Shown here: piece by piece, positions 13,367 through 13,690 of the stretch
How the letters are laid out: every line of letters starts with the position of its first letter
Position numbering within the stretch: the stretch's first letter is position 1
Source: Candidatus Micrarchaeota archaeon
Lineage (GTDB): Archaea; Micrarchaeota; Micrarchaeia; Micrarchaeales; CABMGC01
DNA: 64,000 nucleotides
Assembly: GCA_028867025.1 (NCBI GenBank)
Contig: JAGWHC010000001.1
Coordinates: 118,972 to 182,971, forward strand
Direction of reading: 5' to 3'
Made by a program: the position numbers and the translations under genes
Notes under the pieces: model-generated
The model's database searches: none
What the model saw: only the letters and a program-made list of their open reading frames with translations
What the model was told of the DNA's origin: nothing

Positions 13367-13690
13367 TTGCCTGCTTATAAAGCACGTGATATAGTGGCAA
13401 AGCGAGTTGTGCTCAAGCCGCAGTTCAAGATAGAGAACATAGTGGCAAGCGCAGACCTGGGAGTGGAGCTTGACCTATATGCTATAGCAAAGGCCTCTCC
13501 GGACGTTGACTACGAACCAGAGCAGTTCCCTGGCGCGATATACAAGATAAAGGAGCCGAAGGTCGCCCTTCTTCTCTTCAAGAACGGCAAGATAATCTGC
13601 ACCGGCGCGAAGACCGAGGCAGACATAAAGAAGGCCATCGACCAGGTCATAAAGGTAGTCAAGAACTACATACTCTCGGAGAAGAAGTAG
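13367..13690 (+). CDS. TATA-box-binding-protein-like protein with a single TBP repeat (half-size TBP)
   Basis: FKIENIVASADLGVELDLYAIA...DYEPEQFPGAIYKIKEPKVALLLFKNGKIICTGAKTEADIKKAI is one complete TBP repeat. An in-frame TAG at 13319-13321 blocks upstream extension, and the stop at 13688-13690 is followed by a convergent gene. The likely real start is GTG at 13394 (about 98 aa). Confidence 0.75.
   Translation: MPAYKARDIVAKRVVLKPQFKIENIVASADLGVELDLYAIAKASPDVDYEPEQFPGAIYKIKEPKVALLLFKNGKIICTGAKTEADIKKAIDQVIKVVKNYILSEKK

What the first reader, a model, noticed from the sequence alone, without database searches (positions are those of the whole stretch)
13367..13690. Half-size TATA-binding protein: a stand-alone single TBP repeat
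Canonical archaeal and eukaryotic TBPs have two tandem repeats (about 180 aa) that form the saddle. This ORF encodes exactly one repeat (…FKIENIVASADLGVELDLYAIA…DYEPEQFPGAIYKIKEPKVALLLFKNGKIICTGAKTEADIKKAI…), about 98-107 aa.

It is bounded by an in-frame TAG 46 nt upstream (13319-13321) and by its own stop, which is followed immediately by a convergent DedA gene. No second repeat can therefore be joined by a simple frameshift. It has a strong TATA box (13355-13364) and looks intact.

A functional single-repeat TBP would have to homodimerise into a perfectly symmetric saddle. That is the long-hypothesised ancestral state of TBP, and it would have consequences for promoter directionality.
Basis: partly seen in the sequence, partly recalled or inferred. 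Interest (0 to 1): 0.72.

Follow-up and report, generated by a model that had tools for sequence, protein, structure and literature searches.

The report
Single-repeat TATA-binding protein of Micrarchaeota
This archaeon's TATA-binding protein gene encodes only one of the usual two repeats, is intact and strongly conserved across many related genomes, and probably works as a symmetric pair, making it a natural test of how this core transcription factor arose.

Summary
One intact gene encodes a single TBP lobe (Pfam PF00352, E 1e-31), flanked tightly by L21e and a VTT/DedA gene. The true start is GTG 13394, giving 98 aa, not TTG 13367.

It is neither an artefact nor a pseudogene. Independent assemblies and metagenome contigs reproduce it. 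dN/dS is 0.007-0.19, and it is the most conserved gene in its neighbourhood.

It occupies the same L21e-adjacent slot that holds the ordinary two-repeat TBP in other Micrarchaeota. Single-repeat TBPs turned up in 38 species-level genomes and several hundred protein clusters.

Two-repeat TBPs in sister lineages have near-identical repeats, up to 89%. They contain nucleotide-identical gene-conversion tracts, so single and tandem forms probably interconvert by unequal recombination.

The DNA-kinking Phe pair, the minor-groove residues and the two TFB-contacting Glu residues are all retained.

Best reading: it acts as the lineage's general TBP as a homodimer, with orientation set by TFB and the BRE. 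It is derived, not a primordial relic.

Two things are unproven: that no other TBP exists in the genome, and that the protein dimerises. I found no publication describing this.

The parts
13394..13690 (+). Coding sequence of the single-repeat TBP: 98 aa, GTG start, TAG stop at 13688-13690
   Evidence: Pfam TBP E 1.2e-31. Orthologs begin MAK at this position and L003 has ATG here. AF2 model superposes on one TBP lobe at rmsd 0.7-1.8 A. dN/dS 0.007-0.19.
13367..13393 (+). Upstream in-frame part of the longest ORF (TTG 13367). Probably 5' leader or promoter, not coding.
   Evidence: TTG lies 2 nt after the TATA element. Gene callers and orthologs start at the position of 13394.
13353..13369 (+). 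Conserved TATA element GTATATAAATACCTT(G). TATA core at 13355-13364, about 30-39 nt upstream of the GTG start.
   Evidence: Read directly. The same TATATAAATACCTT(T) is present upstream of orthologs L003, L010, L013 and L016.
13374..13383 (+). Second conserved A/T element CTTATAAAGC, between the TATA box and the start codon. Function unknown.
   Evidence: (G/T)TTATAAAG(G) recurs in L003, L010 and L016.
13319..13321 (+). In-frame TAG that closes the reading frame upstream
13436..13444 (+). Codons N15-I16-V17 in strand S1, the minor-groove contact positions of a TBP lobe
   Evidence: N15 and V17 are invariant across half, N and C lobes. The assignment to DNA contacts comes from my knowledge of TBP-DNA structures.
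13511..13534 (+). Stirrup motif Y40-E-P-E-Q-F45-P-G47. It holds the two Glu that contact TFB and the first intercalating Phe.
   Evidence: Invariant in 27 half-TBPs. The Glu positions C.L3.2 and C.L3.4 contact the conserved Arg and Thr of TFB/TFIIB (PMC7221094).
13577..13579 (+). Codon F62, the second DNA-kinking Phe of the lobe (LLLF-KNGK)
   Evidence: Invariant in all lobes aligned.
13022..13309 (-). Ribosomal protein L21e, the divergent neighbour that anchors the ancestral TBP slot
   Evidence: Pfam L21e. L21e(-)|TBP(+) adjacency is seen in 15 single-repeat and 13 two-repeat Micrarchaeota loci and in 5 of 5 further L21e look-ups.
13694..14311 (-). VTT/DedA-family membrane protein. It is convergent, with its stop 3 nt after the TBP stop. 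The longest ORF runs to 14389.
   Evidence: Pfam VTT_dom. Orthologs are called at 205 aa.
11836..12792 (+). Rpo4/RpoF (11836-12174) and DUF655 (12214-12792). Together with L21e these are the conserved partners of the TBP slot.

Best explanation
The gene encodes the general TATA-binding protein of this Micrarchaeote in single-lobe form.

Two identical 98-aa subunits are inferred to pair through strand S1 and helix H2. This would rebuild the ten-stranded saddle with exact two-fold symmetry. The dimer would carry four intercalating Phe and two identical stirrups, each able to bind TFB. TFB reading the BRE on one side of the TATA box would then set the direction of transcription, as it does in other archaea.

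The form most likely arose by loss of one repeat from a two-repeat TBP whose repeats had been homogenised by intragenic gene conversion. Unequal recombination between near-identical direct repeats removes, or re-creates, exactly one repeat in frame. That would explain why single and tandem forms alternate among related lineages at the same locus.

Shown:
- One intact lobe, under strong purifying selection.
- Positional orthology with two-repeat TBPs.
- Wide distribution of the single-repeat form.
- Gene-conversion tracts in tandem relatives.
- Retention of the DNA- and TFB-contact residues.

Inferred: homodimerisation, TATA binding, TFB recruitment, being the only TBP in the cell, and the recombination mechanism.
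For: Reality of the gene:
- Four independent assemblies give the same 98-aa gene and the same synteny; the protein is indexed in 42 blocks of the collection.
- Logan contigs from mine-drainage and soil metagenomes tile 12800-14400 with no differences and no joints.

Selection:
- Window versus L003: dN 0.005, dS 0.65.
- Median dN/dS is 0.14 over 41 pairs.
- Protein identity is 98% against 76-89% for the neighbouring genes, L21e included.
- 54 of 98 positions are invariant in 27 clusters.

TBP character:
- Pfam E 1e-31.
- 49-57% identical to either lobe of Pyrococcus TBP.
- The model matches one lobe at rmsd 0.7-1.8 A.
- N15, V17, F45, F62 and G71 are invariant across all lobes.
- The E41-P-E43 stirrup is retained.

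Same slot as the ordinary TBP:
- L21e(-)|TBP(+) next to Rpo4 and DUF655 holds 182-203 aa TBPs in other Micrarchaeota and half-size TBPs here.

Tolerance of symmetry:
- Tandem relatives have repeats 67-89% identical.
- They contain nucleotide-identical tracts of 19, 32 and 67 codons (one nucleotide differs in the 67-codon tract) with sharp edges.
- P0001, with 89% identical repeats, models as a normal saddle: pLDDT 94, TM 0.87-0.9.

No second TBP seen:
- None in the 64-kb window.
- None within 4-10 kb in any locus.
- All 80 loci of the genome scan come from different assemblies.
- No NCBI locus-tag prefix recurs among the named hits.

Orientation by TFB-BRE: PMC7289017.
Against: - No whole genome could be scanned. 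A canonical or divergent second TBP elsewhere in the roughly 0.7-1 Mb genome is therefore not excluded.
- Dimerisation is untested.
- The monomer model is only moderately confident: pLDDT 81.5, and three of five models were poor.
- No RNA or protein evidence of expression was found.
- A second large family of half-size TBPs sits at a different locus in Micrarchaeaceae. I could not show directly that those genomes lack an L21e-slot TBP.
- The known precedents for single-domain TBPs all coexist with a full-length TBP (PMC3597702).
Confidence: 0.62

Rival explanations
1. It is an accessory single-domain TBP paralog, like Halobacterium TbpA. It would coexist with a canonical two-lobe TBP encoded elsewhere and act as a modulator or be dispensable.
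For: Every previously described monopartite TBP-domain protein coexists with a full-length TBP (PMC3597702). Whole genomes were not scanned here, and the scan was truncated.
Against: - It sits in the ancestral TBP slot, which holds the ordinary TBP in sister lineages.
- It is more conserved than its ribosomal-protein neighbour.
- No second locus came from any of 38 single-repeat genomes.
- Several carrying contigs approach genome size for this group (0.59-1.2 Mb) and appear with only one TBP cluster in the lists.
- These are reduced DPANN genomes.
Confidence: 0.15
2. It is one half of a split TBP. It would pair with a different half-size TBP encoded at another locus, such as the FAD-oxidoreductase|TBP|GT1 type, to form a heterodimer.
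For: Two large half-TBP families exist, only about 50-58% identical to each other, at different loci. Both types occur in the same metagenomes.
Against: - The two types never came from the same assembly among the 80 loci, nor under the same locus-tag prefix.
- They fall in separately binned MAGs from the same samples, for example FK3.bin83 versus FK3.bin165.
- Contig depths differ between the types and do not track the window's across runs.
- Both types keep the TFB-binding stirrup, so there is no division of labour.
Confidence: 0.08
3. It is a stand-alone helix-grip nucleic-acid-binding protein with a role outside transcription initiation, working as a monomer in the way the RNase HIII or glycosylase TBP-like domains do.
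For: Single TBP-like domains bind duplex nucleic acid in other contexts (PMC3597702, PMC7221094).
Against: - It is 55-70% identical to bona fide TBP lobes of relatives.
- It keeps the TFB-contact glutamates, which bacterial TBP-like domains lack.
- It occupies the TBP locus.
Confidence: 0.05
4. It is an assembly collapse, a recent deletion artefact or a decaying pseudogene.
For: Near-identical tandem repeats can be collapsed by short-read assemblers. Relatives do carry such repeats.
Against: - The same single-repeat gene appears in many independent assemblies, including long-read MAG contigs of 243 and 659 kb.
- Metagenome contigs show no joints or variants.
- dS of 0.65-2 between orthologs with dN/dS at or below 0.19 means the single-repeat state has been maintained for a long time.
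Confidence: 0.02

Closest known systems
Canonical archaeal TBP (for example Pyrococcus woesei 1PCZ/1AIS, Methanocaldococcus 2Z8U, Sulfolobus 1MP9)
   Same: The lobe fold is the same (rmsd 0.7-1.8 A). The Phe pair, the Asn/Val/Thr DNA-contact positions and the YEPEQFPG stirrup with the TFB-contacting Glu residues are the same. It has a TATA-containing promoter and an orthologous genomic slot in the phylum.
   Different: There is one lobe per polypeptide (98 aa) instead of two (about 180 aa). It must therefore dimerise, and the saddle would be exactly rather than pseudo-symmetric, with two TFB-competent stirrups. It scores about 100 bits against NCBIfam TBP models whose cut-offs are 181-347 bits.
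Near-symmetric two-repeat TBPs of other Micrarchaeota (P0001, P0002, P0006, P0010; loci L005-L007)
   Same: They share the locus (L21e|TBP), are 57-71% identical to each lobe, and have the same stirrup and FKNGK motifs.
   Different: The two lobes are covalently linked. The repeats are 67-89% identical and kept alike by gene conversion.
Halobacterium TbpA and similar halobacterial single-domain TBPs (Brindefalk et al. 2013, PMC3597702)
   Same: A single TBP domain that clusters with genuine TBP lobes.
   Different: TbpA sits beside several full-length TBP paralogs, is very similar to them and is non-essential. The protein here is lineage-wide, occupies the ancestral TBP slot and has no full-length partner detected.
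Thermococcales monopartite TBP-domain proteins (for example P. furiosus NP_578195; PMC3597702)
   Same: Stand-alone proteins of about 90-100 aa with a TBP-like fold.
   Different: Those are highly diverged from TBP, form their own cluster and coexist with a normal TBP. The protein here is a close TBP homolog with all the functional signatures.

Membership tests
TATA-binding protein (Pfam PF00352 lobe; archaeal/eukaryotic TBP) | At least one TBP lobe (helix-grip S1-H1-S2-S5-H2) matching PF00352 above the gathering score | tested here: met
   108.8 bits against a 22.9-bit cut-off, full-length match 1-85/85. The model matches TBP lobes at rmsd 0.7-1.8 A.
TATA-binding protein (Pfam PF00352 lobe; archaeal/eukaryotic TBP) | Two tandem lobes in one polypeptide forming the saddle | tested here: not met
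   There is one lobe only. The ORF is closed by TAG 13319-13321 and TAG 13688-13690. No other lobe appears in any frame of the 64 kb.
TATA-binding protein (Pfam PF00352 lobe; archaeal/eukaryotic TBP) | DNA-kinking Phe pair and minor-groove Asn/Val/Thr positions in the lobe | tested here: met
   N15, V17, F45 and F62 are invariant in the alignment of half, N and C lobes, and T70 is invariant among half-TBPs. Mapping these onto DNA contacts comes from my knowledge of TBP-DNA structures.
TATA-binding protein (Pfam PF00352 lobe; archaeal/eukaryotic TBP) | C-lobe stirrup glutamates (C.L3.2 and C.L3.4) that bind TFB/TFIIB | tested here: met
   E41 and E43 in Y-E-P-E-Q-F-P-G are invariant in 27 half-TBPs. 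Their role is described in PMC7221094.
TATA-binding protein (Pfam PF00352 lobe; archaeal/eukaryotic TBP) | Reaches NCBIfam curated TBP cut-offs (NF001592-NF001601) | tested here: not met
   Best score is 101 bits against cut-offs of 181-347 bits. The symmetric two-repeat relative P0002 also fails, at 186 against 255 bits.
TATA-binding protein (Pfam PF00352 lobe; archaeal/eukaryotic TBP) | Binds and bends TATA DNA and recruits TFB and RNAP | not testable with these tools
   This needs biochemistry.
TATA-binding protein (Pfam PF00352 lobe; archaeal/eukaryotic TBP) | Is the genome's general (orthologous) TBP | tested here: inconclusive
   It is a positional ortholog of two-repeat TBPs, and no second locus came from the same assemblies. 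Against that, the scan was truncated and whole genomes were not searched.
Accessory monopartite TBP-domain proteins (halobacterial TbpA; Thermococcales group; PMC3597702) | Single TBP domain as a whole protein | tested here: met
Accessory monopartite TBP-domain proteins (halobacterial TbpA; Thermococcales group; PMC3597702) | Coexists with a full-length TBP in the same genome | tested here: inconclusive
   None was seen in the window, the flanks or the truncated scan. Complete genomes were not searchable.
Accessory monopartite TBP-domain proteins (halobacterial TbpA; Thermococcales group; PMC3597702) | Thermococcales type: strongly diverged from genuine TBP lobes | tested here: not met
   It is 55-71% identical to lobes of related two-repeat TBPs and 49-57% identical to Pyrococcus lobes.

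The most novel reading that the evidence does not exclude
The common ancestor of the Micrarchaeota, and perhaps of the Iainarchaeota too, ran transcription on a homodimeric single-lobe TBP. On this reading every two-repeat TBP now in the phylum is a secondary re-fusion, and single and tandem forms have interconverted repeatedly by unequal recombination.

This would be a living demonstration that a perfectly symmetric TBP can serve as the sole TBP of a cell.

The extreme version is that these genes descend from the pre-duplication TBP and were never two-lobed. The repeat tree does not exclude this. It would, however, require the root of Archaea plus eukaryotes to fall next to this clade, so I put it at about 0.03.
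Probability: 0.3. Interest if true: 0.88.

Novelty: new variant of a known kind. Interest (0 to 1): 0.78.

Why it matters
[quoted passage not shown] A whole archaeal lineage whose orthologous TBP gene encodes one lobe would supply natural proteins for direct tests:
- whether a symmetric homodimeric saddle can bind and bend TATA DNA;
- how TFB and the BRE alone impose direction;
- what lobe asymmetry was later needed for.

The near-identical, gene-converting tandem TBPs next door show the duplication-fusion step, and its reversal, happening in real time.

There is also a practical point. NCBI's curated models miss these proteins, so many are labelled 'hypothetical'. That can make Micrarchaeota look as if they lack TBP.

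Tried and rejected
Structure and expression:
- No RNA-seq runs hold the gene.
- The supplements of the Ca. Micrarchaeum harzensis co-culture paper had no TBP entries in the stored text.

Literature:
- Searches for single-repeat or half TBP in Micrarchaeota, DPANN or ARMAN found only Brindefalk 2013 and general reviews.

Co-occurrence with another TBP:
- Matching 'longest contig' values between TBP and L21e clusters gave no link to genomes of the second half-TBP family.
- Five L21e look-ups all returned loci with an adjacent TBP, three half-size and two full-size. I therefore never sampled an 'empty slot' genome.
- Looking up the window's own L21e returned nothing.
- Depth covariation across metagenomes was too confounded by many co-resident Micrarchaeota.

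Other:
- The 50%-representative search ranks two-lobe proteins first and added little.
- No TFB gene was among the ten window ORFs of about 290-350 aa that I scanned.
- I rejected the TTG 13367 start, assembly collapse and pseudogene readings.

Full report
**What is there**

The ORF at 13367-13690 (+) is real. It carries one complete TBP lobe and nothing else: Pfam PF00352, profile 1-85/85, E 1.2e-31. phmmer against PDB aligns the same about 85 residues to either lobe of Pyrococcus, Methanocaldococcus and Sulfolobus TBPs at 49-57% identity.

The frame is closed upstream by TAG 13319-13321 and ends at TAG 13688-13690. L21e (13022-13309, minus strand) lies upstream. A VTT/DedA gene ends at 13694 on the minus strand, immediately downstream.

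tblastn and a six-frame HMM scan of all 64 kb find no other lobe. No frameshift can therefore restore a second repeat.

The start codon needs correcting. Orthologs begin MAK... at the position of GTG 13394, and L003 has ATG there. TTG 13367 lies 2 nt after the TATA element. The protein is 98 aa.

TATATAAATACCTT at 13353-13369 is conserved upstream of orthologs. So is a second TTATAAAG element.

**Not an artefact, not decaying**

The same 98-aa gene, with the same neighbours, occurs in four independent assemblies. It is indexed in 42 blocks of the collection. The neighbours, in order, are Rpo4, DUF655, L21e(-), TBP, VTT(-) and Pelota.

Logan contigs of mine-drainage and soil metagenomes tile 12800-14400 without a single difference or joint.

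Evidence for purifying selection:
- Nei-Gojobori dN/dS is 0.007 against L003 (dS 0.65).
- It is 0.06-0.19 against more distant orthologs, with a median of 0.14 over 41 pairs.
- The protein is the most conserved gene of its neighbourhood: 98% against 76-89% versus L003, and 86% against 61-79% versus L010, ribosomal protein L21e included.
- In 27 clusters, 54 of 98 positions are invariant.

**It sits where the ordinary TBP sits**

In other Micrarchaeota the slot divergent from L21e, next to Rpo4 and DUF655, holds a 182-203 aa two-repeat TBP. Of the 80 loci fetched from species-representative genomes, 15 single-repeat and 13 two-repeat TBPs share this slot. Three further L21e look-ups again found half-size TBPs beside L21e, on contigs up to 777 kb.

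The window's gene is therefore the positional ortholog of the lineage's TBP.

**How widespread**

Of these, 39 are single-lobe ORFs of 89-126 aa, and 38 of them are complete. They are 50-87% identical to the window protein.

A second large family (Micrarchaeaceae) sits at a different locus, FAD-oxidoreductase(-)|TBP(+)|GT1(-), near SecY or SRP54. It gave 338 hit clusters, and the 120 listed are all 80-149 aa. It occurs on contigs of 940,636 and 1,209,602 bp.

The window itself comes from a 658,056-bp contig.

**Symmetric tandem relatives and gene conversion**

The two-repeat TBPs closest to the window protein have unusually similar repeats:

| Protein | Identity between its two repeats |
|---|---|
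| P0001 | 89% |
| P0002 | 87% |
| P0003 | 81% |
| P0005 | 80% |
| P0006 | 79% |
| other DPANN TBPs in the list | 40-57% |

At the DNA level the repeats contain identical tracts with sharp edges and diverged flanks:
- L007: 67 consecutive codons differ by one nucleotide, while the first 17 codons are heavily diverged.
- L005: a 32-codon identical tract.
- L006: a 19-codon identical tract.

This is the signature of intragenic gene conversion.

In P0001 the N-terminal tail (VPQPKFRIEN) equals the inter-repeat linker (IPQPKFRIEN). That is what a whole-unit tandem duplication would produce.

P0001 models as a normal TBP saddle: pLDDT 93.9, TM 0.87-0.9 to solved TBPs.

Near-identical direct repeats are substrates for unequal recombination, which deletes or adds exactly one repeat in frame. 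I infer this as the route between tandem and single forms.

**Repeat phylogeny (low resolution: NJ on 92 columns, no bootstrap)**

Canonical N lobes and C lobes of Thermoplasmata, Woesearchaeota, Nanoarchaeota and Thermococcus form two separate clades. All Micrarchaeota and Iainarchaeota lobes (N, C and single) form a third.

Micrarchaeota N lobes show no preference for canonical N over canonical C (0.407 against 0.405). Single lobes show none either (0.393 against 0.397).

Single lobes are equidistant from the N and C lobes of their nearest tandem relatives. L021 against L019 is 70/69, with 68 between that protein's own N and C lobes. Sometimes a single lobe is closer to both than they are to each other (L046 against L070: 68/73 against 59).

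This fits either a single-lobe ancestor with repeated re-fusions or concerted evolution with repeated losses. Both directions may have occurred.

All other archaea sampled, including other DPANN, keep distinct N and C lobes. The single-lobe state is therefore most simply derived, not a pre-duplication relic.

**Function**

The lobe keeps the positions invariant in all TBP lobes: N15, V17, F45, F62 and G71. It also keeps the stirrup Y-E-P-E-Q-F-P-G. Its two glutamates are the C-lobe signature that contacts the conserved Arg and Thr of TFB/TFIIB (PMC7221094).

A homodimer would therefore have four intercalating Phe and two TFB-competent stirrups. In archaea the orientation of the TBP-TFB-DNA complex is set by TFB-BRE contacts (PMC7289017, citing Bell et al. 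1999), so exact symmetry is tolerable.

The monomer model superposes on one lobe at 0.7-1.8 A. It is only moderately confident: pLDDT 81.5, with three of five models poor. This would be expected of an obligate dimer, but a shallow alignment could equally explain it.

**What remains open**

I could not search whole genomes. Evidence that there is no second TBP is indirect:
- none in the 64 kb, and only one TBP gene in each of the fetched loci scanned, L001-L089;
- no assembly contributes two loci to the scan;
- no NCBI locus-tag prefix recurs among the named hits of the two TBP searches;
- no two-lobe cluster shares a contig length with the long half-TBP contigs.

The scan was truncated. I also never sampled the L21e slot in a genome of the second half-TBP family. 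Metagenome depths were too mixed to help. No expression data were found.

**Comparison and novelty**

Known single-domain TBPs are halobacterial TbpA and a diverged Thermococcales group. All of them coexist with full-length TBPs (PMC3597702).

The case here differs in four ways: it is a close TBP homolog, it sits in the ancestral TBP slot, it is lineage-wide, and no partner was detected.

NCBIfam TBP models do not reach their cut-offs on it (101 bits against 181-347 bits), which explains the 'hypothetical protein' labels.

Six literature searches found no description of it. I rate it a new variant of a known kind. Confidence is 0.62 that it is the functional, homodimeric general TBP of the organism.

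Noticed in passing
L007:3577-4125, L005:6001-6552, L006:6001-6549 (related Micrarchaeota): Two-repeat TBP genes whose repeats contain nucleotide-identical tracts with sharp boundaries and diverged flanks. The tracts are 67 codons (with one nucleotide difference), 32 codons and 19 codons. This looks like ongoing intragenic gene conversion between the TBP lobes.
   Followed up: yes
L024, L029, L039, L041, L090-L094 (TBP at about 4000-4340 or 5001-5399): A second, very large family of single-repeat TBPs (Micrarchaeaceae). It gave 338 hit clusters, and the 120 listed are all single-domain. It sits at a different conserved locus, FAD-oxidoreductase(-)|TBP(+)|GT1 glycosyltransferase(-), near SecY, SRP54 or the thermosome. 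It occurs on 0.94- and 1.21-Mb contigs.
   Followed up: partly
L028 (DATJLP010000005.1), L066 (JAVYSI010000001.1), L013/L038/L042/L053: Contigs carrying Micrarchaeota-type half-TBPs are deposited under unrelated names: Candidatus Acidoferrum sp. (a bacterium), Methanothrix sp. and Candidatus Marsarchaeota. They are probably mis-binned or mislabelled.
   Followed up: no
P0130 (376 aa), P0131 (272 aa), P0152 (702 aa), P0229 (329 aa): TBP-family representatives with three or four matched lobes in one protein. They could be real multi-lobe TBPs, fused gene calls or eukaryotic proteins.
   Followed up: no
window 13353-13383: Upstream of the half-TBP, two conserved A/T elements recur in orthologs: TATATAAATACCTT and TTATAAAG(G). 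In some orthologs CCTTT and AAAGG form an inverted pair. This could be a regulator site, or a shared divergent promoter with L21e.
   Followed up: partly
window 23205-23345 (-): Rfam reports a tRNA match spanning 141 nt that ARAGORN did not report. It is probably an intron-containing archaeal tRNA.
   Followed up: no
window 36278-37315 (-) and 49349-50362 (+): Two paralogous proteins of about 340 aa, each with two AsnC/Lrp-type winged-helix HTH regions (tandem HTH architecture).
   Followed up: no
L061:4001-4643: A two-repeat TBP whose second repeat is split over two frames (three HSPs). This is either a frameshifted gene or an assembly error. If real, it could be an intermediate in repeat loss.
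   Followed up: no
P0097 (113 aa, 614-bp contig): A half-TBP whose N-terminal third resembles the L018/L020 subtype, while the rest is identical to the window subtype. It could be a recombinant or a chimeric assembly.
   Followed up: no
window 39875-40738 (+): A D12-class N6-adenine DNA methyltransferase (Pfam E 3e-71). I did not look for a partner restriction enzyme.
   Followed up: no
window 13694-14389 (-) versus 14352-15413 (+): The longest VTT/DedA ORF (231 aa) overlaps the Pelota start by 38 nt. Orthologs are called at 205 aa, so the VTT start is probably near 14311.
   Followed up: partly
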